Origin: a virus
Direction: 5' to 3' (one strand)
Virus record (IMG/VR): IMGVR_UViG_3300045988_041103
DNA: 45,914 nt
Positions 1 to 45,914 of the stretch are shown here, in pieces. The stretch's first letter is position 1; every line of letters begins with the position of its first letter. Under the pieces are notes generated by a model. It was not told the DNA's origin, made no database searches, and saw only the letters and a list, made by a program, of their open reading frames with translations. The position numbers and the translations under genes were made by a program.

Positions 1-99
1 AATAATATAGCATCTGTTCCATCTGTTCCATTCAAAGATTTTCAAGAGATTTCAGGCATTTTCAGCAGAACAGATCAGAACACATAAGCAAAAAAAAAT
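1..99. repeat. Terminal direct repeat copy 1 (identical to 45816..45914)
   Basis: Read directly: bases 1-99 equal 45816-45914 base for base. Base 100 (g) has no partner because the window ends. Confidence 0.95.
12..86. repeat. 9-bp motif array: ATCTGTTCC x2 (12-20, 21-29), then inverted GAACAGATC (68-76) and GAACACATA (78-86)
   Basis: Read directly. The same motif family occurs at 45748-45765 and at 29322-29562. Confidence 0.9.
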
Positions 100-133
100 G
101 ACCGCCCCCGGTCTTGCACACCGGAAGCGGTCA
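90..133 (-). terminator. Rho-independent terminator-like hairpin reading on the minus strand
   Basis: Stem TGACCGC (99-105) pairs with GCGGTCA (127-133), with an inner CCGG/CCGG pair. On the minus strand the hairpin is followed by T9 (plus-strand A9 at 90-98). Confidence 0.55.
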
Positions 134-240
134 GGCGAAACAAACCCTTTTGAAGTTAATGTTTCAACCACCATTGAACATTATATCACATGGGGTTTAG
201 CTTTGCCATACCCTTTTTTCCAAGAAAGACAGGTGATATA

Positions 241-1260
241 ATGCGAAATCCCAACGGCTATGGAACGGTTGCGAAGCTATCAGGAAAGTGCCGCCGCCCA
301 TACATAGTGAAGAAAACCGTTGGATGGAATGAAAAGCGCCAACCGATCTATGATATAATCGGCTATGCGGAAACCCGTGAAGCGGGAAACATCATGCTTG
401 CGGAATACAACCGTGATCCATGGGATGTTGACCGGGCGAAAATCACCCTCCAACAGCTTTTTGATCTATGGAAAGAAAAGAAGGCCCCCAAGCTGGGGGA
501 ATCCAACCGTTCTTCACTTTGTTCAGCGTTCAACCATTGTTCAAAGTTGGTGAACAAACCTTATAAGCAAATCCGTTCATACCAAATGCAAGAAACCATT
601 GATAACTGTGGGAAAGGGTACAGCACCCAAGCGGCAATCAAAAACCTTTGGGGGCATCTTGACAGGTTCGCCCTTGAATTGGATATAATAACCCGCTGTT
701 ACTCTGATCTTCTGACTTCTGATCCAATCCCGCCCACAAGCCGCCTTCCTTTCAGTACGGATGAAATCAAACAGCTTTGGGAACACCAGTCTGATCCTTG
801 GGTTGATACTGTCCTGATCCTGATTTATTCCGGGTGGCGGATCAGTGAATTGTTGAACCTGAAACCTGAAGATATTGATCTTCATGCCGGGACGATGAAA
901 GGCGGCACCAAAACAAAGGCTGGTAAAGATCGGGTGGTTCCCATTCATTCCAAAATCAGGCCATTCATTGAAGCCCGTCTTGCTGAAGGTGGCCCACGGC
1001 TGATCTGCTATAATGGAAGGCCCTGTAATCAAACCCAATACCGGATATTTTGGGCGGACATTATGAAGGCTCTGGAAATGACCCACCCCCCGCACGAATG
1101 CCGCCACACCTTTGAAACGCAGTTGGACAGCGCCGGGGCCAACCGGAAATGTATTGATCTTCTTATGGGCCATGTGTCCAAGGACACTGGAAACCGGGTC
1201 TATAATCACAAAACCCTTGATGAATTGAAAGCAACTGTGGCACTAATCAAAATATTTTGA
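241..1260 (+). CDS. int: Tyrosine integrase (phage integrase family) with an arm-type DNA-binding N-terminus
   Basis: ORF 190..1260. ATG 241 has AGGTGA 4 nt upstream, while ATG 190 has no SD. C-terminal catalytic box HECRHTFET...LMGHVSKDTGNRVYNH (H-x-x-R...H...Y). The N-terminal NGYGTV..RRPYIVKK region resembles arm-binding domains. Confidence 0.9.
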   Translation: MRNPNGYGTVAKLSGKCRRPYIVKKTVGWNEKRQPIYDIIGYAETREAGNIMLAEYNRDPWDVDRAKITLQQLFDLWKEKKAPKLGESNRSSLCSAFNHCSKLVNKPYKQIRSYQMQETIDNCGKGYSTQAAIKNLWGHLDRFALELDIITRCYSDLLTSDPIPPTSRLPFSTDEIKQLWEHQSDPWVDTVLILIYSGWRISELLNLKPEDIDLHAGTMKGGTKTKAGKDRVVPIHSKIRPFIEARLAEGGPRLICYNGRPCNQTQYRIFWADIMKALEMTHPPHECRHTFETQLDSAGANRKCIDLLMGHVSKDTGNRVYNHKTLDELKATVALIKIF

Positions 1261-1269
1261 AAAAACCTC

Positions 1270-1328
1270 TTGACTTATGCACTCAATGGGTGTATTCTAA
1301 TCATAGAAAGACACCCATTGAGTGCATA
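1270..1328 (+). promoter_or_regulatory. Candidate promoter overlapped by a perfect 18-bp inverted repeat (putative operator)
   Basis: TTGACT (1270-1275), 17-nt spacer, TATTCT (1293-1298). Inverted-repeat arms TATGCACTCAATGGGTGT (1276-1293) and ACACCCATTGAGTGCATA (1311-1328), 17-nt loop. SD AAGGAAGG follows at 1331-1338. Confidence 0.55.
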
Positions 1329-1343
1329 GAAAGGAAGGTTATC

Positions 1344-2066
1344 ATGAAAGTTCAGGATTTGCTGATTAAAGTTCAGAAGGCTGAAGAAGCCGTTTCCAAG
1401 CGGGAAGCAACCCTTATCAAGCAGACGGCACGGGAACTGAAGCGCCGGGAAGCGTTGGTTGCCAAGGGGGTTGACCTCACCGGAAAACACCCCGCCTTGG
1501 CCCACCGGGACAACAATGATCTGTATTGGGAAATCTGTGATTGGGAAGATTCCAAAGAAGCCGTTGAAAACTCCAAGAAGGTTCTGGAAGAAAAAATCCG
1601 TATCTTGAACACTTGGAAGGATCGTCTGACCGAAGCCAAGAAGAAAGAAAACCTCTGGATCAAGGAAATCCCCGAAACCATGAAGGCCATGCAAACCGAA
1701 CTGGTAGCCCGTTGGGATGAATATGATCTTGAAAGAAAAGAAAGGCTGACCACCGCTTACAAAGAACTTGGCTGGGATAAGTTCATCAAGGAATATAGCT
1801 ATTCCGCATATCAGATGATTCATACCACGGCAAGCGAAATCCACAAGGAAAACATGAAATCCGCTGAATCTCTGATTATGAACCTGTATAGCAGAATCCA
1901 CGCTATCACCGGTGAAGTCACTGATTGGGACGGAATTCATTACAGCGGCGGGGCTTTGAATGGTGTTGTGTATGGCAAGCTGGGGAGTGTTCGGGTTGAA
2001 TCCATTCTTGCCGGTGGCTACAATATCCAACGCCTTCATGTTAGGGTTCTGGTTCACGAAATCTAA
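1344..2066 (+). CDS. Hypothetical protein (cargo gene 1); K/E-rich helical N-terminal half, no recognisable motif
   Basis: ORF 1257..2066. ATG 1344 is preceded by AAGGAAGG. It has the same orientation as the integrase and repressor genes. Confidence 0.6.
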   Translation: MKVQDLLIKVQKAEEAVSKREATLIKQTARELKRREALVAKGVDLTGKHPALAHRDNNDLYWEICDWEDSKEAVENSKKVLEEKIRILNTWKDRLTEAKKKENLWIKEIPETMKAMQTELVARWDEYDLERKERLTTAYKELGWDKFIKEYSYSAYQMIHTTASEIHKENMKSAESLIMNLYSRIHAITGEVTDWDGIHYSGGALNGVVYGKLGSVRVESILAGGYNIQRLHVRVLVHEI

Positions 2067-2131
2067 ACATCAGATCAGGTGGGGTGGGGGAAGCCCCCCC
2101 CCACCGAAAGACTTTGAAAGGGGTTTGAAAT

Positions 2132-2473
2132 ATGAACATCAAAGAAGCCCGTGAATTTGCCGGGTTGACACAAAAGGAAGTTGAAAAGGAATTCGGGGTT
2201 CCGGCCCGGTCAATTCAAAATTGGGAAGCCGGGATCAGACAGCCCCCGGAATATGTGGAAGCCTATCTGGTGGAAAAGCTGTCCCAACTGAAGAAGGTTG
2301 CCCGTGTTCGGGTGATCCCGGAATCCTTGGAAGTCAGGGTGGAAACCCTCGAAGATGGTGAATGGGAACTTTCTACCAGCGCCCCCATTGTAGATAATCG
2401 CATTCCGGTTTCCATTTTGGTTGCCGTTGGGCGGTTTTCGGAAGCCGGTTACAAGCTGGTTTTCATGGGTTGA
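2132..2473 (+). CDS. XRE-type helix-turn-helix protein with a ~50-aa C-terminal extension (cargo gene 2)
   Basis: The N-terminus MNIKEAREFAGLTQKEVEKEFGVPARSIQNWEAG is a classic HTH_XRE signature. SD AAAGGGG lies 9 nt upstream. Confidence 0.75.
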   Translation: MNIKEAREFAGLTQKEVEKEFGVPARSIQNWEAGIRQPPEYVEAYLVEKLSQLKKVARVRVIPESLEVRVETLEDGEWELSTSAPIVDNRIPVSILVAVGRFSEAGYKLVFMG

Positions 2474-2532
2474 ACTACAATGAATTTTTCATTCACTGAA
2501 CGCTGAACTATAAACGCATTAGTAACAAGAAA

Positions 2533-2566: not shown

Positions 2567-2694
2567 TCATCTGTTTTTATTGAGCCATGAATTTTTGAGT
2601 TTTTGTAGGCCCCAATGGGCTGAATTTACTGAATTTTCAGATCACAGGAACCCGGTGAAACCCAAAGGGATAGTAACAACATAGTAACACGCTA

Positions 2695-17502: not shown

Positions 17503-18819
17503 TTACTGGACATAGACAGTCATATAAAGCTGGGCCATAGCGTTGACCGGGGTAACATAGTCCGTCACCACAACGGCCTTCTTGGTATCGCCTTGGGCAA
17601 CCGTCACATTATCGCTGGAGAAGTTCTCAATAGCCCGGATATTCTGAAGCTCCTGATGGTGCTTCACAATATCGTTCCACAGGCTGATCCGCCCGGAAGC
17701 GTCATTGGGAACTTTGCCAAGGTACTTCTTGCCGAACAGAACAGCAATATCATTGGCAATCTGATCCAGAACCCGGATTGTCTGATTGCTGGAAAAGTCC
17801 CCGGACTTTTCATCCGTCACGGAAATGAAGGTGTTAATATCCTCCAAAACCACAACCTTTTCATCCACCAGATGGAACATGAACGAACCTTCCAGAATAC
17901 CGGCTTCCAATTCGCTTTGGGTATAATCAGTATCAATCTGATATTCCCCGTCATAGTCCATATTGGTTGCGGACTTATTCACGGCGGTTCCCGCAATCAC
18001 GCCGGTTGCCCACGGGATCAGGGCGGGATCATCGGTTTCACCAACAATGGTGTTCTTCACACTCACGGTGCCTTCATAGTCGGCCAGCTTGCGGAAGCAT
18101 ACCACCTGAAACTTCTTGCCCACATCATCCCGCATCCGCTTACAGAAGGCAGAAAACAGTTCAGCAATGGTGGATTTGTTGGTGGGGCAACCCATAGCGT
18201 TGAAGGTATAGGCTTCCATCTTATCCAGATAGGTTTGATAAGCCGCATCCTCCACACTCCCATTGGTGCCGCTGGTAAGGGGGGTGGAAGCAGTCACAGC
18301 AAGGCTTCCTTCTGTTTTGAAGTCCACATAATCATTGGGCTTCAGGTCAGTCATTTTAGAAATGGCCTTCTGCTGATCCACTTGGACAGTGCCAAGGAAA
18401 GTGGAAACATCATACAGTTTGCTTTCCGGCTGACTGTTTTCATTTTCCTCAATGACAATACGAAGGTCATTCCCACGGGTGCCGGGGTATTTGGCCGTTG
18501 CATAAGTGCAAGCGGCCTTTGCGCCGCTGGAATTCAGGCGGAAGAAGTGAACCGTTTGGGCGTGTTTGAAAATCTCACGCATGGGCTTCAGTTCGTCCGC
18601 CGTGTACGCATAGCCGAAAATCTTTTGGGAATTCTTCTGGAACTCCCCAAGTTCAACGGTGATAACCTCACCTTCAGGCCCCCAATTCATTTCAAGGGGG
18701 ATGGTCGCAATACCACGATCAGAGAGGGTGGCGCTTGCATTCGCAACCGAAATGAAGTTGATATATGCACCGGGCAGAATCTTGTTCTGCGTCAAAAAAG
18801 TGCCGCCGCCAAGGGCCAT
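17503..18819 (-). CDS. Contractile tail sheath protein (XkdK-like)
   Basis: 438 aa. The N-terminus MALGGGTFLTQNKILPGAYINF is typical of sheath proteins. Confidence 0.9.
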   Translation of the reverse strand: MALGGGTFLTQNKILPGAYINFISVANASATLSDRGIATIPLEMNWGPEGEVITVELGEFQKNSQKIFGYAYTADELKPMREIFKHAQTVHFFRLNSSGAKAACTYATAKYPGTRGNDLRIVIEENENSQPESKLYDVSTFLGTVQVDQQKAISKMTDLKPNDYVDFKTEGSLAVTASTPLTSGTNGSVEDAAYQTYLDKMEAYTFNAMGCPTNKSTIAELFSAFCKRMRDDVGKKFQVVCFRKLADYEGTVSVKNTIVGETDDPALIPWATGVIAGTAVNKSATNMDYDGEYQIDTDYTQSELEAGILEGSFMFHLVDEKVVVLEDINTFISVTDEKSGDFSSNQTIRVLDQIANDIAVLFGKKYLGKVPNDASGRISLWNDIVKHHQELQNIRAIENFSSDNVTVAQGDTKKAVVVTDYVTPVNAMAQLYMTVYVQ

Positions 18820-18820
18820 A

Positions 18821-19036
18821 TCAATTCACCTTGCCTTTCTTGAAAAAGTTTTGAAGCAAGCTGTCCACCTGCTCCATCGTGTATTCCTTTCCATCTTCCA
18901 GCAAAACGGACAGAAGATCACGCCGCTTGGCGTATCGCTGGAAGGTCAGGATATTTCTTTTGGTGAAAACCGGGACATTGGAAACAGGCGGGGCCGCTTC
19001 CGCTGTCTTGGGCTTTCTGGTTTTGGTCGTAGGCAT
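18821..19036 (-). CDS. Hypothetical small protein
   Basis: 71-aa ORF tightly packed before the sheath gene. Confidence 0.5.
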   Translation of the reverse strand: MPTTKTRKPKTAEAAPPVSNVPVFTKRNILTFQRYAKRRDLLSVLLEDGKEYTMEQVDSLLQNFFKKGKVN

Positions 19037-24984: not shown

Positions 24985-25067
24985 TGGTGCCGGGTATGGG
25001 ACTTGAACCCATACGCCAAAGGCGGCGGATTTTGAATCCGCTGTGTCTGCCATTCCACCAACCCGGC
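24985..25067 (-). tRNA. tRNA-Leu: tRNA-Leu (anticodon CAA), class II with a long variable arm, encoded CCA
   Basis: Folded manually: acceptor GCCGGGT/ACCCGGC, anticodon stem GCGGA/TCCGC with loop TTCAAAA, T arm ATGGG-TTCAAGT-CCCAT, 3' ACCA. Confidence 0.9.
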
Positions 25068-25070
25068 AAG

Positions 25071-25145
25071 TGGTAGCGTGTACGGGGGTCGAACCCGTGT
25101 TCCCGGCTTGAAGGGCCGGTGTCTTAACCGCTTGACTAACACGCC
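25071..25145 (-). tRNA. tRNA-Glu: tRNA-Glu (anticodon TTC), encoded CCA
   Basis: Acceptor GGCGTGT/ACACGCT, anticodon stem CCGGC/GCCGG with loop CCTTCAA, T arm ACGGG-TTCGACC-CCCGT. Confidence 0.9.
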
Positions 25146-28827: not shown

Positions 28828-29310
28828 TCAAGCGGTGGCACTCTGTTTTTCTCTGTTCCTGAAAAACTCGCTGTTCGCTTGGGAGAAAGCAAGCAAACCT
28901 TTCCCGTGAAGTTCATACACCCATTGAATTGAAAAGTTAAGTTCAAGGGCAATATCTTCCCACTTTTTCAACTGAATATAGCGCCCGATCAGAATATTTT
29001 GCTGATCAAGATCAGGAATCCGATTGATCATGGTGAAGGCTTCCTGTTTCATATCAACAAGTTCATCAATGCGCCGGTTAATATCGGCTTCAAGGTCAAC
29101 GATCTTGGCAACCGTTTCTTCAAGGGTGTTTTTCGGGCCTGAAGTCTGTACCTTATCGGGGTTCAGTTCATAGCTTTGGGAAGTCAAGCTGGAACGCAAG
29201 GTGAGCACCGTATCTGTCAGCCGCTTGATCAAGCGATCTGTTTTTCTGATTTGGGCAAAATAATCTTTGGCCCGTTGGGAAAGTTCTTTGTCAGTCACTA
29301 TGTAACACAT
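28828..29310 (-). CDS. Putative late-gene transcriptional activator (sigma region-4-like; ArpU/RinA/DUF1492-type)
   Basis: Position is directly upstream of terS. The C-terminal ILIGRYIQLKKWEDIALELNFSIQWVYELHGKGL looks like an HTH of sigma-70 region 4 type. The start is uncertain (29310, 29298 or 29406). Confidence 0.5.
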   Translation of the reverse strand: MCYIVTDKELSQRAKDYFAQIRKTDRLIKRLTDTVLTLRSSLTSQSYELNPDKVQTSGPKNTLEETVAKIVDLEADINRRIDELVDMKQEAFTMINRIPDLDQQNILIGRYIQLKKWEDIALELNFSIQWVYELHGKGLLAFSQANSEFFRNREKQSATA

Positions 29311-29321
29311 CCTTTCTGCAC

Positions 29322-29562
29322 ATCTGTTCTGTTCAGGTGGATTGGAAAACCCTTGATTTATCAGCATTTTCAGAGAATAGAACAGATAGAACAGATACTT
29401 TTGCATTCTCTTATATAGTTATACTTCTTTATATATTTTTTATATTTTATATTTAAGAAATATAACATCTGTTCCATCTGTTCTATAATTAAGAAATCCC
29501 GCTGTTTTCAAGGGTTTCCAGCGTCACAGATATATCAAAAACATCTGTTCCGCATCCGTTCC
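29322..29562. repeat. 9-bp motif array: ATCTGTTCT (29322-29330); GAACAGATA x2 (29380-29397); 69-bp AT-rich spacer; ATCTGTTCC/T x2 (29467-29484); ATCTGTTCC (29543-29551); ATCCGTTCC (29554-29562)
   Basis: Read directly. It is a paralogue of the 45748-45844 module, including the shared spacer core TATATTTTTT(T)ATATTTT. Confidence 0.9.
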
Positions 29563-29584: not shown

Positions 29585-29935
29585 TTAGGTGTCACCTGTC
29601 CGGGGTTCCAGCATCACTTCAGCAATTTCAATTCCAATCACCATATCCTTGAAGTCCTCGGTGTCACCTTCCACTTCCAATTCATCCCCATTAGCATTTT
29701 TCAGCGTTGCCCGGTAGATTTCATATTCATCATCGAAACTAAACTGACAATCATTTTCAGTGTAAAGGTCAATATCTTCTTGAACATCATATTCCAGAAA
29801 GGTGAAGTCCAACAAGGAAGCACCCTTGCAATTTCCACCGATTTTGAAAGCCACATGGCCGATATAGCCCCATTGCATGAAGGTTACACGAACCACATGA
29901 ACCCCCTGAAAATTGGGGTCATAAAAGTTGATCAT
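29585..29935 (-). CDS. Hypothetical acidic protein
   Basis: 116-aa ORF, the last gene of the early operon. Confidence 0.5.
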   Translation of the reverse strand: MINFYDPNFQGVHVVRVTFMQWGYIGHVAFKIGGNCKGASLLDFTFLEYDVQEDIDLYTENDCQFSFDDEYEIYRATLKNANGDELEVEGDTEDFKDMVIGIEIAEVMLEPRTGDT

Positions 29936-30138
29936 CGGTATTCCCTCCCGCTCTTGCGTTCACGAATTTCAATTCTGTTCAGCAGTTCAAAGCCAGCCAA
30001 ACGGATGATGTACTTCAGGACGAAGATCAGGGTGTTCACCCGCTTCTGCTGTTCATCTTCTTCCCGAATGATGTTCTTTGTGCCGTGATAGGCTGTGGGA
30101 TCATTATAGCCTTCAGCATTTTCCCAAGGTTTAGGCAT
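29932..30138 (-). CDS. Hypothetical small protein
   Basis: ATG 30138 (MPKPWENAEGYNDPTAY) has AAAGGAAG upstream. The ORF track begins at 30168. Confidence 0.5.
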   Translation of the reverse strand: MPKPWENAEGYNDPTAYHGTKNIIREEDEQQKRVNTLIFVLKYIIRLAGFELLNRIEIRERKSGREYR

Positions 30139-31958: not shown

Positions 31959-32540
31959 TCAGTTAAACCATTTGATCACCGGATCACCGGTGAAGCCTTT
32001 TTCCCACACATACCACGCATAGGCTATGGCGCTGTCTGTTTTGCTCATATCCCCGTTCTTATAACAGGCCAGCCGGGAACGGGAAATATAAACTGTTCGG
32101 GGGGGGGTACTCTTGAAGAATAGCCCCCGCTTTTGTCCCTCCAAAAATTGAACCTTCAGGAACATAGCCACTTTCCCACCGGGCCTGACGCTTTCAAGCG
32201 CCTTCTGAACAAATTCAAGGCCCATTGAGTACGGCGGGTTTGTGATTATGTCCCCTTCAAATCCTTCAAGGGTTTCCGTCAGGAAGTCCAACGGTTCAGG
32301 ATCACCAAACCCACGGTAAATCAAATCTGTGGAAATGACTTCATATCCGTGGGCCTGAAGCACCTTGGAAATGTGGCCTTCCCCACAGGCCGGTTCCCAT
32401 ATCACCGGGGCAAAGGGTTCCAGTTCCAGCAATAGTTCCACGGCCTTTGGGTCGGTTGCATAATAATCATGCTGTTCCCGTTCTTCCAAGGCGTGGTTGG
32501 AAGCGCCCAAGGTGGTGAATATGCTGTTCTGATTTCTCAT
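31959..32540 (-). CDS. Orphan N6-adenine DNA methyltransferase
   Basis: Motif I EPACGEG, motif IV NPPY. No restriction partner lies nearby. It contains a coding-strand C9 tract (plus-strand G9, 32099-32107). Confidence 0.8.
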   Translation of the reverse strand: MRNQNSIFTTLGASNHALEEREQHDYYATDPKAVELLLELEPFAPVIWEPACGEGHISKVLQAHGYEVISTDLIYRGFGDPEPLDFLTETLEGFEGDIITNPPYSMGLEFVQKALESVRPGGKVAMFLKVQFLEGQKRGLFFKSTPPRTVYISRSRLACYKNGDMSKTDSAIAYAWYVWEKGFTGDPVIKWFN

Positions 32541-34435
32541 TCTTCACCACCTGTCCCTTCCACGAACACACGGGTTTTCTTCCCCTTGATGTACTTTGCA
32601 TCGGTGACGAACCCACACCGCTTGCAAATCTGCCTTGAAAATTCAATGGCGGATAGGGCTTGGAAGTTGTTTGCAATGCAGTATTCCTTATAGCGCCTGT
32701 AAACGGTGTTGGTGGCTTCATTTACAATCCCGTCAAGGCCCACTTCCTGAATGAAGCCAATGATGGGGTTATTATTCTGTTCGTATTCATCCAACTGCCC
32801 CTGAACTCGCTTGGAAGTGGTGAATTGGGCCTTGCCCAAAACAGATTTCAAAGCCTTCAGGCCCAAAACAATCAGGTATTCCATGGAATCCTGTTCACAA
32901 AGTTCATCTTTGATGAACGGGCGGAAATCGGGATCATTTGGGGTAAACTTTGCATCAAAGGGAACGATCACCAAACGCCGCTGAACGGCTCCGGTTTTAT
33001 CCTTCATGCGGGGAATATTGTTGGCGCTGAACAGGAATTTTGCATAGTTATTGAATTCAAACGGGTCTTGGCCTTTCCGCTCCACATTCACCCGATCACC
33101 GGTTACCAGCTTCTTGAATACAGAAGCATTGGCAATAAATTCATCACCAATATCATCACCGATGTTCGCCAGCTTTCCGAACAGTTCAGCGGTTTTGAAC
33201 CTGTCCCCAAGTTCCTTCAGGTCAAGGGAAGCAATGTTGGAATCCCCAAGCATATTCTTCACCACATGAAGGAAGGTGGATTTGCCGTTGCTTTTATCTC
33301 CAATCAGAATGAAGGCTTTTCCAAGTTCATTGCGCCGGTACAGGCAATAGCCCACCATTTCTTCCAGCAAGGCCCTAACTTCAGGATCGTTACAGGCCAG
33401 CCGGTCAAGGGTGTGATCCAGCAATTCCGAATAGGCGGCGGGATTGTAGGGCCACGGGATTTTATTTGTGATCACCACATCCGGGGTGAAGTCCTTGAAT
33501 GAACCATCCTTGATGTTGTAAAGGCCGTTGGTGAAGGCAATCACATTGGGGTTGGTGGTCTTGGCTTCTCCATCAATCATAATTTCAAGATAGGCAAGCA
33601 CTTCAGAACGGTTGGCCCGTTTCAGATGGGGAATGTGTTTGATCATTTGGGATTCAATTTCCGCATGGCCCGGAACATAAATCCCATCCTTGTAAATGTG
33701 AAGCTGACCATTGATCTTCACAATATAGTTGTTGTTCTTCAGGTAGGTTGCAAACTTATCAAACAGGAAAGTGGAACCCTTGAAAAACACCGGCTTCTTG
33801 AACGCATCATCCCGAAGAATGGTTTCCAATTCCCGTTCAGACAGAGGATCAGAAAGAACATACCGGTTGATCAGGCGGATGGTTTCACGGGCTTCTTCCT
33901 TTGTGAAATCCTCGCTCTGAAGGGTCAGAATGTAGTTGAACAGGCTTTGGTTCCGTCCATCCCCGGCTTCCATATCCAGAAACTTCATATTGGTTTTCAC
34001 AGGGGTCAACCATTTGGGAAGTTCCTGAATTTCATCTTCTGGGCAATCCTGAAGCATGGGGCGATCCACACCCTTGAAGCGCATAATGGCATAGCTGTTA
34101 TTGCGCCCCACCTTGGCATCTGTTTCAATGCCAAGGGCCAAGGTTTGTTTTGTCCAGCTTTTTTCAACATACCCTTCAGGGTTTTTGAAATAAAAGTGTT
34201 TGCCCCTTGTGGTGGCATACACCCGGCACTTCAAGGCCAAATCCTGAACGATCTTGAACAGAAGATCAGAAGTTTCACCATCATCAACATCAATCAGGAT
34301 CGTTTCTTCTCCAAGAATGGCCGCATATTCATCAAGGTCTTGAACATCTTCAAGGGTGTTCAGCCTTTTCCGCCCCTTGAATTTTTCAAGGCATTGCTTA
34401 TCCTTTGTCGGCACATAGCCCCGGAACAGTTGCAT
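32537..34435 (-). CDS. Primase-helicase (prim-pol-like N-terminus + D5/P4-type SF3 helicase)
   Basis: ILIDVDD acidic motif in the N-terminal part. Walker A GDKSNGKST. Walker B-like ANIGDD. Confidence 0.85.
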   Translation of the reverse strand: MQLFRGYVPTKDKQCLEKFKGRKRLNTLEDVQDLDEYAAILGEETILIDVDDGETSDLLFKIVQDLALKCRVYATTRGKHFYFKNPEGYVEKSWTKQTLALGIETDAKVGRNNSYAIMRFKGVDRPMLQDCPEDEIQELPKWLTPVKTNMKFLDMEAGDGRNQSLFNYILTLQSEDFTKEEARETIRLINRYVLSDPLSERELETILRDDAFKKPVFFKGSTFLFDKFATYLKNNNYIVKINGQLHIYKDGIYVPGHAEIESQMIKHIPHLKRANRSEVLAYLEIMIDGEAKTTNPNVIAFTNGLYNIKDGSFKDFTPDVVITNKIPWPYNPAAYSELLDHTLDRLACNDPEVRALLEEMVGYCLYRRNELGKAFILIGDKSNGKSTFLHVVKNMLGDSNIASLDLKELGDRFKTAELFGKLANIGDDIGDEFIANASVFKKLVTGDRVNVERKGQDPFEFNNYAKFLFSANNIPRMKDKTGAVQRRLVIVPFDAKFTPNDPDFRPFIKDELCEQDSMEYLIVLGLKALKSVLGKAQFTTSKRVQGQLDEYEQNNNPIIGFIQEVGLDGIVNEATNTVYRRYKEYCIANNFQALSAIEFSRQICKRCGFVTDAKYIKGKKTRVFVEGTGGEE

Positions 34436-34438
34436 TGG

Positions 34439-36259
34439 TCAAATCCCCCCCCCAACCTGTTTAATTCCAAAGTCATTCAGGCGATCCCACGCCATTTTGA
34501 TGTAATAGCCTTTATCCAGTTCATCCGGGATCGGCATACCGCATACATCGTCATTGATGATGAAACAGTGATCCGGGGTGTTGGCAAACTGTTCAGGGTT
34601 CTTTTCCCGGCCTTTGATGATCTTACCGGAAACCTTGAATAATCCGCCTTTGCTGTGGTCTTTGGAAGCAAACACCCGGAATGTTTTATCTGTCTGAACC
34701 TCACCCCCGCTGAACCGCTTCACAGTTTTTGAGCGGCCCTTATCATCCCTGATCTTTTCAAGGGTGATGGTGGGGGAATAAATGGCATATTTGTATTTGC
34801 TGGAAACCTTCACAACCTTCTGGAAGTCCCGCAAATCAGAACATTCCATGATGGTTTTTTCCGGTGGAATATCGTAAAGGAAGAAGTTCACAATGGCCCG
34901 GTTGACAATGGGAAGATCATAATCCAGATCAGACAGCTTTTTGACATAAGCGCCCTTGCATTTCCACCGGGGTTTTCCCTTTTCATCAACCAACGGCCCA
35001 TCGGGAACCACCAGATAATTGTTCACATCCTTCTGATACACCCGCCTGAATTCATCGAATTCCAGCCGCATACCAGTTCTTTCTTCCCACTCCCAACAAA
35101 TATCATCAATCAATTCATAATCGTCATAGTGACGCAGTTTGATCAAGATACCATCGGTGTTGCTCTGGATAATGTCACAGTGATCTTCCAACCGTTCAAT
35201 CAAATCCAGCAAGAGAAGCTGACCGCCCACACAGACATTGTTTGCTTGCCGGGGGTCATACATGGCATTGTGGCGATCCTTCATGGCTCCATAGGTGGAA
35301 TTCAGAACGATTTTGTAAGGCTGTTGCATGGGGTTCTTTTCGGCCTTCAGCTTCAACCGGGTATGATAGATTTCTTCATACTTGGACGGATCAGCCACAT
35401 TCCGGGAAATCCATTTATAAACCAGCATCAAGGATGGATAATAGGAAGCCACATCCACATTGATGAAGTAACCTTCCCCGAAATATTGCGGAATTGCTCC
35501 GTGCAAACCTCCCCAAGCGAATACATGGGGAACCCCGGCAACCTCAATTTCAAGGGCCTTGGAATAGTCCCGGTTCAGAGGATTTTTATACCAGTTCAAA
35601 ACCTCTGTATATTTTTCAATCCGCAAGGTTCCGGGAAGTTGAAGTTCAAATTCATCATCATGATCCCGCTGAACAGCCCCAAGGATTTTGGCGGAAAGCT
35701 GTGCCTTTGTGCGCCCAATATCCGATATGGGAAGGCTGAAGGCTTTCACAAGGGACATTTGGGCATCAAATTCATCTTCTTTGCGCCTTAACCACACTTC
35801 AACGGTTTCTTCCACATCATGGCGGCAGTATTTAACCGTTTCCTGAATCTCCGCTTCTGTCAATGGCCGGTCAATATCAAAAGGAACACTGGTTTCCTTG
35901 ATGGAATGCCCCATGAATGCTTCCAGCGTTTTCAAGCTGATAGGTGGATTGGGTATCACATCATAATTGATCACCGGGAAATTCCTGAACAGGCTTGAAA
36001 ACCTGTAACCGGGTTTATCTTCAAGAATGATCCAATCATTCACATCCTTGGGGTTGAACCCACACAGGATTCCTTTCAGAATGTATTGGTCATAATTTCG
36101 GCTGTTGTACCCGGCCCAAATGGTTCCTTTGTGCTTCTCATAGAAGCGCCGCAACTGATCAGGATCATTGATGATCACGGTTTCTTTCTTTTCGGTCAGG
36201 TCGATGAAAACAACCATCCAATCATACTTGAAAACCTCAAAGTCATAGAAGATCATCAT
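34439..36259 (-). CDS. Family-B-like DNA polymerase with a 3'-5' exonuclease domain
   Basis: Exo motifs YDFEV, NSRNYDQYIL and YCRHDVEE. Pol motifs DVASYYPSLM and KIVLNSTYGAM. Motif C reads SNTDG (N where DTD is usual). The start ATG 36259 is preceded by GGGTGA; the ORF track begins at 36430. Confidence 0.8.
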   Translation of the reverse strand: MMIFYDFEVFKYDWMVVFIDLTEKKETVIINDPDQLRRFYEKHKGTIWAGYNSRNYDQYILKGILCGFNPKDVNDWIILEDKPGYRFSSLFRNFPVINYDVIPNPPISLKTLEAFMGHSIKETSVPFDIDRPLTEAEIQETVKYCRHDVEETVEVWLRRKEDEFDAQMSLVKAFSLPISDIGRTKAQLSAKILGAVQRDHDDEFELQLPGTLRIEKYTEVLNWYKNPLNRDYSKALEIEVAGVPHVFAWGGLHGAIPQYFGEGYFINVDVASYYPSLMLVYKWISRNVADPSKYEEIYHTRLKLKAEKNPMQQPYKIVLNSTYGAMKDRHNAMYDPRQANNVCVGGQLLLLDLIERLEDHCDIIQSNTDGILIKLRHYDDYELIDDICWEWEERTGMRLEFDEFRRVYQKDVNNYLVVPDGPLVDEKGKPRWKCKGAYVKKLSDLDYDLPIVNRAIVNFFLYDIPPEKTIMECSDLRDFQKVVKVSSKYKYAIYSPTITLEKIRDDKGRSKTVKRFSGGEVQTDKTFRVFASKDHSKGGLFKVSGKIIKGREKNPEQFANTPDHCFIINDDVCGMPIPDELDKGYYIKMAWDRLNDFGIKQVGGGI

Positions 36260-36381
36260 TTCACCCGCTTTCTGAATGTTCTTTGGTGAATCGGTAGAAA
36301 CAGCCCCGCCACGGGAAGGCTTCACCATGGGGCCAACCGGGGCAAAGCCCCGGCCTTGAAAAGAAACTTTCAAGAATTGCG

Positions 36382-36430
36382 GTGTCCTTTGGGACACTTT
36401 TATTGTAAAAAATTTTGCGCCGTTTTTCAA
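36382..36430 (-). promoter_or_regulatory. Internal promoter with an operator: TTGAAA-17-TACAAT-4 nt-GTGTCCCAAAGGACAC
   Basis: -35 at 36425-36430, -10 at 36402-36407, palindrome at 36382-36397. The geometry is the same as in the cro-like promoter. Confidence 0.6.
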
Positions 36431-36897
36431 TCCTCGACTTCATAAACTTCATCAATGCTGATGGAATTGAAGCGGGAATCATCATAGTCCACGGCATATT
36501 CCAGCTTGCCATCAATGGCTTCCGCAATGTCAAGGACAAGCTGGGCAAACTGCTTATAGCTGGTGAAACTGACGGGAATACCGGAATCCAGCTTTTCAAG
36601 GAAGCCCATAGCGGAAGCGATCATGTTCTTATCGTTCTTGGTGCCGTACAGAACACGGTTCATGAACAGGCGCTGGTTCTTGTACTCACCGGAAAGAATC
36701 TTGAAGGACACAGCCAGCATGGGGCGGTTGGGATCGGCCTTGGTGCCTTTGATCTCCATGGTTTCCACCTTGGCTTCATACTTGCCAGCGGGAATGGTGG
36801 GGAAGTCACCACCGCCGTTCTTCTTGGCATCCTCCACATCAGCCTGAAGGCCCTTCAGATCAACGGTACGATCAATCTTGTCAAAATCAATAGCCAT
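36427..36897 (-). CDS. DUF669-like protein (putative ssDNA-binding partner of Sak4-type recombinases)
   Basis: 156 aa. The FPTIPAGKYEAKV..MEIKGTK pattern and its position after the AAA_24-like gene support the call. Recalled. Confidence 0.55.
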   Translation of the reverse strand: MAIDFDKIDRTVDLKGLQADVEDAKKNGGGDFPTIPAGKYEAKVETMEIKGTKADPNRPMLAVSFKILSGEYKNQRLFMNRVLYGTKNDKNMIASAMGFLEKLDSGIPVSFTSYKQFAQLVLDIAEAIDGKLEYAVDYDDSRFNSISIDEVYEVED

Positions 36898-41335: not shown

Positions 41336-42641
41336 CGTTATAGTCCTTTCTCATTTGAAGGGTGGTCAGAATATCTTCTTCCACCGTTCCGGGGCAGATC
41401 AGAAGGTAATAGAAGCACGGGCGTTCTTGGCCCATCCTGTGAATCCGCTTTTGGCTCTGCTCCCATAGTTCCCAACCTTGGGGAAGGCTGAAATAAATGA
41501 TCTTGTTGGCCTTTTGGAAGTTGCCCCCCATGGCCCCGGCCTGATACTGAATGAAAGTAACTGAATTGCTCCGGTATTGATAGGCATTCAGATCTTTTAC
41601 TTCACCGGATAGGATGGAAACCGGGCGATTCATGGCGGTCACTATCCCCTTCAGGCGTTCCATTTCTTCTGTGAAGTTATAGAACACGATCAGCCGATCT
41701 TCTGTACTGTTCACCAAATCCCGGAAGGCTTCATAGCGGTATGGGTTATATAGGCCGCAAAGCTGACGGGCATACAGGCGGCGGGTCAAGCTGGTATCAC
41801 CAATCAATTCCCGCTTACAGTGTTCATTGGAACCGAAGAAATCAGAATCCAGTTCAAATTCCTGAAGGTTTGTGGTGTCGATAGTCACAACCCGTTCACG
41901 CCAGAATTTCCAATATTCCGGGGAAGGCCGGGTTTTCACTTGGATCATGTTCTTTGCAGGAAGATCAATACCGGCATCATCGGTGGTCATAAACACCGCC
42001 CCATGTTCGGCCAGCTTCTTTTTCAGCCGGTCAACATTTTTATAGCCGGTGATCTGCTTCCGCCAAAAACCATCATCTTCAATCCATTCTGTTTCAATGT
42101 ACTGCTTCCAGAACAGTTCCTTTGATATGTTCCACCCCAACAGTTGGCATTGGCTCCACAGCTTTTCATACTTGCCCCCGGTTGGTGTACCGGAAAGAAG
42201 AATTACATTGTCAGGATGAAGCCCAAGAATGAAATTGGAACGCTTGGCGTTTTCATTCTGGATCAGGGAAGATTCATCTAACATCAGCGTGAAGCCAGTC
42301 AAGGTTTTCAGAATCTTCCGCCTGAAGGTCAGTTCATAGTTGATCACGCCGATCATCAGGGTTGGAACCTCACATTGAACCTGTTCAAAGAACCATTTGA
42401 AGGTTTTGGGGTTTGTAAGATCAAAAACACAATTCCGGGTGTAGTAGGTTTGAAAATGTTCAATCCAATCTTGAACCTTGGAACACTGACAAACCACCAG
42501 ATTGATCCGGGTGTTCAGCTTCATCATTTTTTCTGAACCAACAAAAGTTTTCCCAAGGCCCATATCAAGGTAATAAGCACACCGGTTGTGGCCTTCCGTT
42601 TGATCAAGGGCTTTTTGCTGGTGCTGGAATAGGGTGATCAT
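41292..42641 (-). CDS. SNF2-family helicase/ATPase
   Basis: Motif I LDMGLGKT, motif II LMLDESS, and C-terminal helicase motifs QRIHRMGQ. Confidence 0.85.
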   Translation of the reverse strand: MITLFQHQQKALDQTEGHNRCAYYLDMGLGKTFVGSEKMMKLNTRINLVVCQCSKVQDWIEHFQTYYTRNCVFDLTNPKTFKWFFEQVQCEVPTLMIGVINYELTFRRKILKTLTGFTLMLDESSLIQNENAKRSNFILGLHPDNVILLSGTPTGGKYEKLWSQCQLLGWNISKELFWKQYIETEWIEDDGFWRKQITGYKNVDRLKKKLAEHGAVFMTTDDAGIDLPAKNMIQVKTRPSPEYWKFWRERVVTIDTTNLQEFELDSDFFGSNEHCKRELIGDTSLTRRLYARQLCGLYNPYRYEAFRDLVNSTEDRLIVFYNFTEEMERLKGIVTAMNRPVSILSGEVKDLNAYQYRSNSVTFIQYQAGAMGGNFQKANKIIYFSLPQGWELWEQSQKRIHRMGQERPCFYYLLICPGTVEEDILTTLQMRKDYNDELFRKYEEKTERN

Positions 42642-45747: not shown

Positions 45748-45844
45748 GAACAGATAGAACAGATATTTTTCCTATCTCTGATATATTATTTTATATTTTT
45801 TTATATTTTGATTTGAATAATATAGCATCTGTTCCATCTGTTCC
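45748..45844. repeat. GAACAGATA x2 (45748-45765), 61-bp AT-rich spacer, ATCTGTTCC x2 (45827-45844)
   Basis: Read directly. It continues into 68-86 of the next unit and is a paralogue of 29380-29484. Confidence 0.9.
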
Positions 45845-45914
45845 ATTCAAAGATTTTCAAGAGATTTCAGGCATTTTCAGCAGAACAGATCAGAACACAT
45901 AAGCAAAAAAAAAT
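45816..45914. repeat. Terminal direct repeat copy 2 (identical to 1..99)
   Basis: Read directly. Confidence 0.95.

What the first reader, a model, noticed from the sequence alone, without database searches (positions are those of the whole stretch)
29322..29562. Second copy of the ATCTGTTCC module at the early/late boundary: paired inverted doublets around an AT-rich core
Seen: GAACAGATA x2 (29380-29397), a 69-bp AT-rich spacer, then ATCTGTTC(C/T) x2 (29467-29484). Extra copies lie at 29322, 29543 and 29554. This has the same architecture, and a homologous spacer core (TATATTTTTT(T)ATATTTT), as 45748-45844. A given 9-mer is expected about 0.35 times in this genome on both strands, yet about 13 copies occur and all lie in these two gaps. 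The two modules cut the circle into a lysogeny/early arc and an int+late arc. Possible interpretations:
- binding sites of one phage regulator, such as the late activator just downstream or the integrase arm domain;
- iteron-flanked origins;
- conserved module-boundary sequences for recombinational exchange.
Basis: partly seen in the sequence, partly recalled or inferred. Interest (0 to 1): 0.6.

Follow-up and report, generated by a model that had tools for sequence, protein, structure and literature searches.

The report
Twin replication origins of a gut phage
The two repeat-flanked AT-rich gaps are most likely the phage's two replication origins, where its own primase-helicase docks through a small DNA-reading hairpin; this is a known kind of origin (as in staphylococcal SaPI islands and phage P4), here present twice and in many natural "lock-and-key" variants.

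Summary
ATCTGTTC occurs 17 times against 1.4 expected. Three copies are duplicates from the 99-bp assembly overlap, 11 lie in two gaps (29322-29562 and 45748-45900), and 3 are strays in genes. The modules are ~150-bp direct repeats: inverted repeat doublets around an 85-86% AT core. The two cores are the least stable duplex segments of the genome.

They are not attP, which a related prophage places at ~2583. They are not sites of the late activator (DUF1492), cI or the neighbouring genes, because relatives keep those proteins at 88-98% identity while using a different repeat word.

The word tracks ~15 residues at the C-terminus of the primase-helicase (32537-34435), a predicted winged-helix beta-hairpin. 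It switches about 13 times on the primase tree and is never discordant. Nine of nine independent prophages fit the rule. The protein is homologous to SaPI5 PriRep5 (PDB 7OLA, E=4e-50), whose wing reads iterons flanking an AT-rich origin.

Verdict: SaPI/P4-type iteron origins, a new member of a known kind. Unusual points are two complete copies bracketing the early arc in all 14 complete or near-complete genomes examined, and 7-9-bp iterons. This scan has reached similar readings on other DNA.

The parts
29322..29562 (.). Module B (origin B): a nested dyad-symmetric array between the end of the early operon and the DUF1492/terS/terL late operon
29322..29334 (+). Outer left iterons: ATCTGTTC at 29322 and an overlapping one-mismatch copy TTCTGTTC at 29327. 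They lie 12 bp from the DUF1492 start codon
29348..29356 (+). Type-independent word AACCCTTGA, left copy. It forms an inverted pair with 29508-29516 about the same dyad (~29432)
29380..29397 (-). Inner left iteron doublet GAACAGATA x2 (period 9)
29398..29466 (.). AT-rich core of module B (69 bp, 86% AT). It holds the least stable 60-bp duplex segment of the genome (29405-29464, z=5.9) and is the presumed unwinding element
29467..29484 (+). Inner right iteron doublet ATCTGTTCC ATCTGTTCT
29508..29516 (-). Type-independent word AACCCTTGA, right (inverted) copy
29543..29561 (+). Outer right iterons ATCTGTTC (29543) and ATCCGTTC (29554)
45748..45900 (.). Module A (origin A), a direct repeat of module B. 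It lies between the cI-phrog_888 operon and int. Positions 45816-45914 are repeated at 1-99 by the assembly overlap
45748..45765 (-). Left iteron doublet GAACAGATA x2 of module A
45766..45826 (.). AT-rich core of module A (61 bp, 85% AT). It holds the second least stable 60-bp segment of the genome (45764-45823, z=5.4)
45827..45844 (+). Right iteron doublet ATCTGTTCC x2 of module A
45883..45900 (-). Outer iterons of module A (GAACAGAT and GAACACAT, 10 bp apart)
32537..34435 (-). Primase-helicase, 632 aa. Domains: D5_N 236-348, DUF5906 377-487, Pox_D5 554-622, and TIGR01613 'P4 family' 298-598. Homologous to SaPI5 PriRep5 (7OLA, E=3.8e-50). Inferred initiator that reads the iterons
32558..32713 (-). 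Coding region of the predicted C-terminal winged helix (residues 575-626: helices 575-588 and 596-607, beta-hairpin 609-626)
32570..32614 (-). Specificity hairpin GFVTDAKYIKGKKTR (residues 608-622), the stretch that co-varies with the iteron word. It lies inside an isolated divergence patch (32580-32700) between the window and the T-type relative G007
34439..36430 (-). Family-A DNA polymerase (context: the phage's own replisome)
36427..36897 (-). Single-strand DNA-binding protein (context)
28828..29310 (-).
2581..2585 (.). attP crossover point, inferred from the prophage junctions in G001 (SFEX01000008.1). It shows that neither module is attP

Best explanation
Modules A and B are two copies of a SaPI/P4-type replication origin. 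After induction the early operon makes a D5/P4-family primase-helicase (32537-34435). The beta-hairpin 'wing' of its C-terminal winged-helix domain reads the 8-9-bp iterons ATCTGTTC(C/T). [quoted passage not shown] The protein's primase part, the phage PolA and the SSB then start bidirectional replication. Shown here: the architecture, its conservation, the extreme duplex instability of the cores, homology of the protein to PriRep5, and strict co-variation of the iteron word with the wing. Inferred, not shown: physical binding, melting, and that both copies (rather than one) fire as origins.
For: (1) The architecture matches the published SaPI ori: an AT-rich centre with at least two iterons on each side pointing in opposite directions, read by the Rep C-terminal winged helix (PMC9371898; preprint 10.64898/2026.10.17.759575).
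(2) The primase-helicase is homologous to SaPI5 PriRep5 (7OLA, E=3.8e-50). The tail profile alone matches the 7OLA C-terminal domain at E=5e-6. TIGR01613 'P4 family' scores 228 bits against a cut-off of 109.
(3) The same architecture recurs at the end of the early operon in phages with PolA 43-100% identical, using at least 10 different repeat words. In 14 complete or near-complete genomes the word is the same at both modules.
(4) The word sorts with residues 608-622 of the primase-helicase. On a tree of the primase body the word changes ~13 times among 52 proteins, and no hairpin cluster pairs with two words.
(5) G007/L163 is a natural swap. Its primase is 98-100% identical over residues 1-560 and 62% identical in the last 30. 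Both of its modules switched from GAACAGAT to TTCAACAT. The three changed patches are discontiguous, separated by 93-100% identical DNA.
(6) In an independent set of named prophages, 9 of 9 known tails carry the predicted word, and a new tail comes with a new word.
(7) The AlphaFold model places the variable stretch in the beta-hairpin of a winged helix (pLDDT 87-92). This is the element reported to read iteron bases in PriRep5.
(8) The two cores are the two least stable 60-bp duplex segments of the genome (z=5.9 and 5.4, next 3.5).
Against: GC skew follows gene orientation and shows no origin signal. Unlike SaPIs, the modules are not immediately downstream of the rep gene (they lie 3 kb and ~13 kb away) and the iterons are 7-9 bp rather than 5-6 bp. 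The fold search gave only winged-helix fold-class hits at non-significant E-values (best 0.05). A second, type-independent word (AACCCTTGA) inside module B is unexplained. Why two complete copies are kept is unknown.
Confidence: 0.8

Rival explanations
1. Only one module is the true origin. The other is a cis-acting partner site for the same primase-helicase, either a replication enhancer like P4 crr or a negative 'handcuffing' copy-control site as in iteron plasmids. Both would bind the protein, but only one would fire.
For: Two cognate clusters 15-17 kb apart are kept in all 14 complete or near-complete genomes examined, which suggests a paired function. From memory, P4 alpha binds iterons at both ori and crr; PMC4234260 supports only the ori part. 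A and B evolve in concert as direct repeats.
Against: Both modules have the complete origin anatomy: inverted doublets, outer iterons, and an AT core ranking first or second in genome-wide instability. Nothing in the sequence marks one of them as incomplete.
Confidence: 0.15
2. The repeats are operators of a transcription factor (the DUF1492 late activator, cI/Cro, or another HTH protein) or arm-type sites of the integrase, and they control late-gene and int expression.
For: Module B lies directly upstream of the late-regulator gene and module A lies upstream of int. An outer iteron lies 12 bp from the DUF1492 start codon.
Against: DUF1492 is 98% identical in L014/L163, which uses TTCAACAT. 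cI is 88% identical in T-type L177. HTH144 is 99% identical in T-type L163. phrog_888 is 97% identical in T-type G007 and absent from G-type G003. attP is at ~2583, not in module A. No convincing sigma-70 promoter faces the late genes.
Confidence: 0.03
3. The modules are selfish or recombinational DNA, either a miniature inverted-repeat element present twice or conserved boundary sequences that promote module exchange, with no replication role.
For: They have terminal inverted repeats. Mosaic breakpoints fall at module edges. IMG/VR record G002 is the int+late arc closed through the module. A non-cognate module sits beside the cognate one in G005, L160 and L161.
Against: The host genome G001 has no copies outside the prophage. 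The position is fixed across distant relatives. The strict co-variation with a protein hairpin encoded 3 kb away is not expected for a passive repeat.
Confidence: 0.02

Closest known systems
SaPI replication origins with Rep / PriRep self-loading helicases (Staphylococcus aureus pathogenicity islands; PriRep5 of SaPI5, PDB 7OLA/7OM0)
   Same: The protein is homologous (E=3.8e-50 over residues 245-603, including the C-terminal domain). It is an SF3 helicase with a C-terminal winged helix. The origin has iterons on both sides of an AT-rich centre with at least two on each side in opposite orientation, and spans ~150-300 bp. Specificity differs between elements. The wing beta-hairpin is the base-reading element: reported for PriRep5, and inferred here from co-variation.
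   Different: This is a full 45.8-kb temperate phage of gut Oscillospiraceae with its own PolA, not a satellite. The iterons are 7-9 bp rather than 5-6 bp. The origin is not immediately downstream of rep (3 kb and ~13 kb away). There are two complete copies per genome. The wing here is a tight hairpin, whereas by the residue numbers given in the preprint beta3 and beta4 of PriRep5 are separated by a longer insert.
Satellite phage P4 alpha protein with ori (and crr)
   Same: A multifunctional primase-helicase whose C-terminal winged helix binds origin repeats (PMC4234260). The window's protein passes NCBI's 'P4 family' primase model TIGR01613. From memory only, alpha binds octamer iterons at two separate loci, ori and crr, both needed in cis.
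   Different: No sequence match to the P4 origin-binding domain was found in the PDB search, and it is not among the top 50 fold hits. From memory, P4 crr is not a copy of ori, whereas here A and B are near-identical complete modules. The P4 primase is Toprim-type (PMC4234260); the N-terminal domain here was not classified.
Iteron plasmids and lambda-type origins (Rep/O protein, iterons and an unwinding element)
   Same: The general logic: initiator-specific repeats next to an AT-rich unwinding element.
   Different: In those systems the initiator is a separate protein that recruits a host helicase and the iterons are usually direct repeats on one side. Here the helicase itself carries the reader domain and the iterons are inverted around the unwinding element.

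Membership tests
SaPI-type Rep/PriRep origin | The initiator is an SF3 (D5-like) helicase homologous to Rep1/PriRep5 | tested here: met
   phmmer versus PDB: 7OLA E=3.8e-50. Pfam D5_N, DUF5906 and Pox_D5.
SaPI-type Rep/PriRep origin | C-terminal winged-helix domain that determines origin specificity | tested here: met
   The AF2 model shows helix-helix-beta-hairpin at pLDDT 87-92. Fold hits are winged-helix domains only, with weak E-values. The tail profile matches the 7OLA C-terminal domain at E=5e-6. The hairpin co-varies with the iteron word. Specificity is inferred, not measured.
SaPI-type Rep/PriRep origin | AT-rich centre with at least 2 iterons on each side pointing in opposite directions | tested here: met
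SaPI-type Rep/PriRep origin | Origin located immediately downstream of the rep gene | tested here: not met
   Module B is ~3 kb downstream of the primase-helicase stop, with five genes between them. Module A is ~13 kb away on the other side.
SaPI-type Rep/PriRep origin | Penta- or hexanucleotide iterons, 6-12 per origin | tested here: inconclusive
   The number fits: 8 sites in B and 6 in A at up to 1 mismatch. The conserved word is longer, 7-9 bp with period 7-9.
SaPI-type Rep/PriRep origin | ATP-independent specific binding and melting of the origin; autonomous replication | not testable with these tools
   Needs EMSA, footprinting and replication assays. The read-depth approach was unavailable.
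P4 alpha / ori-crr system | P4-family primase-helicase core | tested here: met
   TIGR01613 E=8e-68, 228.5 bits against a cut-off of 108.7.
P4 alpha / ori-crr system | Origin-binding domain related to that of P4 alpha | tested here: not met
   No P4 chain appeared in the sequence searches of PDB at E up to 10 or in the top 50 Foldseek hits. Only the winged-helix fold class is shared.
P4 alpha / ori-crr system | Two separate cis loci carrying the same iterons | tested here: met
   Two cognate clusters in each of 14 genomes. Whether both are required in cis is not testable here.
Integrase arm-type sites / attP | Repeats flank the crossover core next to int | tested here: not met
   The prophage junctions in G001 place the crossover at window 2581-2585.

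The most novel reading that the evidence does not exclude
The strictly conserved pair of complete, directly repeated origins that brackets the early/lysogeny arc may be a functional design rather than redundancy. It might allow selective over-replication of the 16-kb early arc, or recombination between the origins might split the genome into two circles that each keep an origin (a self-replicating early-arc circle and an int+late circle, as in record G002). The extra non-cognate origins in phages such as G005 might let co-resident relatives replicate each other's DNA.
Probability: 0.12. Interest if true: 0.65.

Novelty: new member of a known kind. Interest (0 to 1): 0.45.

Why it matters
It assigns a function to two conspicuous non-coding modules and names the protein that reads them. 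This applies to a widespread family of temperate phages of gut Oscillospiraceae (Faecalibacterium, Faecousia, Pseudoflavonifractor, Intestinimonas and others), for which I found no published origin description.

The natural series has at least 11 wing-hairpin/iteron-word pairs, several on almost identical protein backbones. It is a ready-made data set for learning how a winged-helix wing reads bases.

The conserved two-origin layout also poses a clear, testable question about why these phages keep two origins.

A practical point follows too. The repeated origins can make assemblers or DTR detectors report one arc as a terminally redundant genome.

Tried and rejected
- **attP / integrase arm sites.** Rejected by mapping the prophage junctions in G001.
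- **DUF1492 late activator, cI, HTH144, phrog_888 and DUF5406 as the binder.** Each is rejected by relatives that keep the protein but change the word, or lack the protein but keep the word.
- **Unbiased whole-ORF screen for type-specific proteins.** It flagged only frames overlapping the primase gene, DUF5406, and late genes missing from partial contigs. The late genes do not track the word: G001 is G-type with ~78% identical late DNA, and G005 has window-like late proteins but a T-type primase tail with cognate T modules at both positions (plus the orphan G module).
- **Promoter/terminator scans of both gaps.** No more hits than shuffled sequence gives, and no promoter facing the late genes.
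- **Rfam scan of module B.** Nothing found.
- **tRNA search.** No tRNA at either module.
- **GC skew.** It follows gene strand only.
- **MITE idea.** There are no copies in host genome G001 outside the prophage.
- **Arc-sized contigs with terminal repeats.** None found beyond G002.
- **Literature on P4 crr.** Not retrievable in the library, so it is cited from memory only.
- **Exact 18-mer scan of viral contigs.** It mostly returned unrelated contigs and was not used further.

Full report
**Observation**

The window is a circular assembly. Its first and last 99 bases are identical, giving a unique circle of 45,815 bp at 48% GC.

ATCTGTTC occurs 17 times on both strands against 1.38 expected, and no shuffle out of 100 reaches that number. 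Three of the hits (12, 21, 68) are duplicates caused by the overlap. Of the 14 unique copies, 11 lie in two intergenic gaps and 3 lie inside genes (3843, 26599, 37061), which is about the chance number.

Module B has this layout:
- outer copies at 29322 and 29327
- GAACAGATA x2 at 29380-29397
- a 69-bp spacer at 86% AT
- ATCTGTTC(C/T) x2 at 29467-29484
- outer copies at 29543 and 29554

Module A has doublets at 45748-45765 and 45827-45844 around a 61-bp spacer at 85% AT, plus two copies at 45883 and 45893.

The two modules align in the same orientation over about 150 bp at 74% identity, well beyond the 9-mers.

**Context**

Genes on the minus strand run from ~44091 down to 29585. This is the early operon:
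- SprT-like protein and an HTH protein
- SNF2 helicase and a VRR-NUC-like nuclease
- exonuclease/Sak4-like protein and SSB
- PolA
- a 632-aa primase-helicase
- methyltransferase, ThyX and others

Minus-strand genes continue from 29310 down to 2695 as the late operon: a DUF1492/phrog_36 regulator, TerS, TerL and the structural genes. On the plus strand lie cI (an S24 repressor), a phrog_888 gene, module A, and then int.

Module B therefore sits at the early/late junction, and module A sits between the immunity genes and int.

Relatives are prophages of gut Clostridia, mainly Oscillospiraceae. The nearest genome, G001, is SFEX01000008.1, a Clostridiales MAG.

**Excluding the regulator and attP readings**

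In G001 a related prophage occupies C85:115863-160393. Its two junctions correspond to window positions 2581 and 2585, so the attP crossover is ~2.7 kb from module A. Both modules are internal to the prophage.

Relatives found through the DUF1492 protein show the same architecture upstream of that gene, but some use a different repeat: (C)CTTCAACATTCAAC ... AT-rich ... TTGAATGTTGAAGG. I call this T-type, and GAACAGAT G-type.

The following pairings exclude the candidate binders:
- L014/L163 has DUF1492 98% identical to the window's, yet is T-type.
- HTH144 in L163 is 99% identical to the window's.
- cI is 88% identical in T-type L177.
- phrog_888 is 97% identical in T-type G007 and is absent from G-type G003.

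None of these proteins can be the specific reader of the repeats.

**A conserved architecture with many specificities**

I wrote a de novo detector for the pattern: tandem doublet, 35-125 bp of spacer at 65% AT or more, then the inverted doublet. I ran it on 80 loci centred on PolA relatives (43-100% identity). It finds such a module at the end of the early operon in most loci that reach far enough.

The words found are GAACAGAT, TTCAACA (period 7), ACCACAGAT, GTAACAGAT, GTTACTG(A/G)T, GTAACTAAT, TTGTCAGA (period 8), TACGCAT (period 7) and GTTCAAGAA. A Neglectibacter prophage adds GGATArGA.

In 14 complete or near-complete genomes covering six words, the cognate word forms two clusters 15-17 kb apart that bracket the early arc, with few or no copies elsewhere. 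Within a genome, A and B are direct repeats with exact stretches far longer than the iterons, for example 59 bp at 100% in G003. This points to concerted evolution.

G005, L160 and L161 carry an additional non-cognate module beside module B.

A screen of all ORFs across eight genomes found no protein whose presence tracks the word. It did flag alternative frames overlapping the primase-helicase gene.

A windowed identity profile of that protein shows the pattern clearly. L163 is 98-100% identical to the window over residues 1-560, 90% over 561-600, and 62% over 601-632.

The C-terminal alignment has a conserved motif, LSxIEFSRQIxKRxG, followed by ~13 variable residues and then RVFV. The variable stretch sorts by repeat word:

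| Repeat word | Variable stretch |
|---|---|
| GAACAGAT | FVTDAKYIKGKKT |
| TTCAACA | IIVDKWISRLGKC |
| ACCACAGAT | LTTDSRRIKGRAC |
| GTAACAGAT | FTTTVKRFRGGNC |
| GTTACTGrT | FIVKNQRRNGKQT |
| GTAACTAAT | LEIISSRIDNTVR |

I built a tree from the primase body with the tail removed. On it the word changes about 13 times among 52 proteins, and no hairpin cluster is ever paired with two words. The T word appears at six or more separate places on the tree, each time with the IVDKWI hairpin.

This is not linkage. Between the window and G007, the tail patch (32580-32700) is flanked by 93-100% identical DNA. It is separated from the module B patch by a 100% identical stretch (29940-30120). Module A lies 13 kb away on the other side.

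An independent set of 20 prophages from named genomes confirms the rule. All nine with a known tail have the predicted word, across Pseudoflavonifractor, Faecousia, Faecalibacterium, Colidextribacter and others. A new tail comes with a new word.

**What the protein is**

Pfam finds D5_N, DUF5906 and Pox_D5. NCBIfam TIGR01613, 'phage/plasmid primase, P4 family', scores 228.5 bits against a cut-off of 108.7.

The only solved relative by sequence is 7OLA/7OM0 (E=3.8e-50, residues 245-603). This is PriRep5 of S. aureus pathogenicity island SaPI5 (PMC9371898). A profile of the last 125 residues alone matches the 7OLA C-terminal domain at E=5e-6.

An AlphaFold model of the last 125 residues, built with an alignment of 18 tails, has these features:
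- mean pLDDT of 75.5, rising to 87-92 in the last 70 residues
- helices at residues 575-588 and 596-607
- a beta-hairpin at 609-616 and 619-626

The variable stretch is therefore the hairpin.

Foldseek returns winged-helix DNA-binding domains: the RFX DNA-binding domain first, then Orc1/Cdc6 and ORC winged helices on origin DNA. None has a significant E-value (best 0.05), so only the fold class is supported.

**Comparison with what is known**

For SaPIs, the literature states the following (PMC9371898):
- Rep recognises iterons through the winged helix of its C-terminal domain.
- Six to twelve iterons lie downstream of rep.
- An AT-rich region sits at the centre.
- At least two iterons on each side point in opposite directions.

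A 2026 preprint with PriRep5 bound to its ori reports that the wing (an antiparallel beta sheet) enters the major groove and is the likely reader of the iteron sequence (10.64898/2026.10.17.759575). The co-variation found here points independently to the same element.

P4 alpha is the other precedent. It is a primase-helicase whose winged helix binds origin repeats (PMC4234260). That P4 has a second cis site (crr) with the same iterons is my recollection only; I could not retrieve a source.

**Supporting physical property**

With nearest-neighbour duplex energies in 60-bp windows, the two cores are the least and second-least stable segments of the genome (z=5.9 and 5.4, next 3.5). This is what an unwinding element should look like.

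**Mechanism proposed**

The early operon supplies the primase-helicase. Its C-terminal wings bind the iterons on each side of the AT core at both modules. The core melts and hexamers self-load. Priming, PolA and SSB then establish forks. Later recombination functions (Sak4-like protein, exonuclease) and the terminase would produce and package concatemers.

Shown: anatomy, conservation, homology, co-variation and duplex instability.

Inferred: binding, melting, and firing at both sites.

The main open alternative is that one copy is a partner or control site rather than an active origin.

**Differences from the SaPI paradigm**
- The element is a full temperate phage with its own polymerase, not a satellite.
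- The iterons are 7-9 bp.
- The origin is not adjacent to rep.
- There are two complete copies.

**Unexplained**

A type-independent word, AACCCTTGA, forms a second inverted pair in module B (29348 and 29508) about the same dyad. It recurs near module B in relatives of other types. It might be the site of a conserved second factor. It also occurs four times in genes (6 copies against 0.3 expected), so I cannot interpret it.

**What could not be done**

GC skew is uninformative.

**Earlier notes of this scan**

Follow-ups on other genomes reached the same kind of reading, a primase-helicase tail matched to iterons. These include a duplicated array in Dhillonvirus coliphages. One unfollowed note describes a GGAACAGAT array before a late regulator and terminase in another genome. 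They did not shape my reading, which was already formed. They do indicate that this is a recurring, known kind of feature.

**Verdict**

The finding is confirmed. This is a new member of a known kind, with a useful natural specificity series and an unexplained conserved two-origin layout.

Noticed in passing
L002/L004 (IMG/VR record G002, 28,643 bp, 'direct terminal repeats'): The record's terminal repeat is the right iteron doublet of the origin module. One end is module B's left half and the other runs into module A's right flank and int. The record is therefore only the int+late arc (62% complete by CheckV), closed through the repeated origin. This is either an assembly or DTR artefact caused by the duplicated origin, or a real recombination sub-circle.
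   Followed up: partly
G005 18568-18679 and 18810-18917 (also L160, L161, L204): Some relatives carry a complete non-cognate origin module directly beside the cognate one at the early/late junction: G-type beside T-type, or the reverse in L161. This may be a relic of cassette exchange or a site usable by a co-resident relative.
   Followed up: partly
window 98-145: A GC-rich hairpin preceded by A9 on the plus strand acts as an intrinsic-terminator-like structure on the minus strand (GACCGCTTCCGG...CCGGGGGCGGTC followed by T9). It lies between module A and int and is conserved in G002 with a different loop. It would stop transcription entering origin A from the int/attachment side.
   Followed up: no
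window 29348-29356 and 29508-29516; also 1212, 2552, 32266, 33775: The word AACCCTTGA occurs 6 times against 0.3 expected. Two copies form an inverted pair symmetric about the dyad of origin B, and similar words flank module B in relatives of other iteron types. Its function is unknown.
   Followed up: partly
window 29585-29935: The DUF5406 gene next to origin B is a variable cassette. In both G001 and G007 it is replaced by ~223 bp of unrelated sequence, while the flanks remain 93-100% identical.
   Followed up: partly
window 1247-2496: The two cargo genes after int (a 269-aa protein of unknown family and a 113-aa HTH protein) are absent from the otherwise 97-99% identical prophage in G001, which has ~23 bp in their place. 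The attP crossover lies just beyond, at ~2581-2585.
   Followed up: partly
window 42638-42641: Relatives G003 and G007 have ~1.07 kb of extra DNA between the SNF2 helicase gene and the HTH gene, where the window has overlapping stop and start codons.
   Followed up: no
window 24985-25145: The phage carries tRNA-Leu(CAA) and tRNA-Glu(TTC) genes on the minus strand inside the late region.
   Followed up: no
L192 versus L183/L184: These primase-helicases have almost identical bodies but different tails and words. L192 (FESVTRWVKGKKTR) uses GGAACA(C/G)AT and shares only the second strand (KGKKTR) with the window's hairpin. This hints that the turn and second strand read the GAACAGAT core.
   Followed up: no
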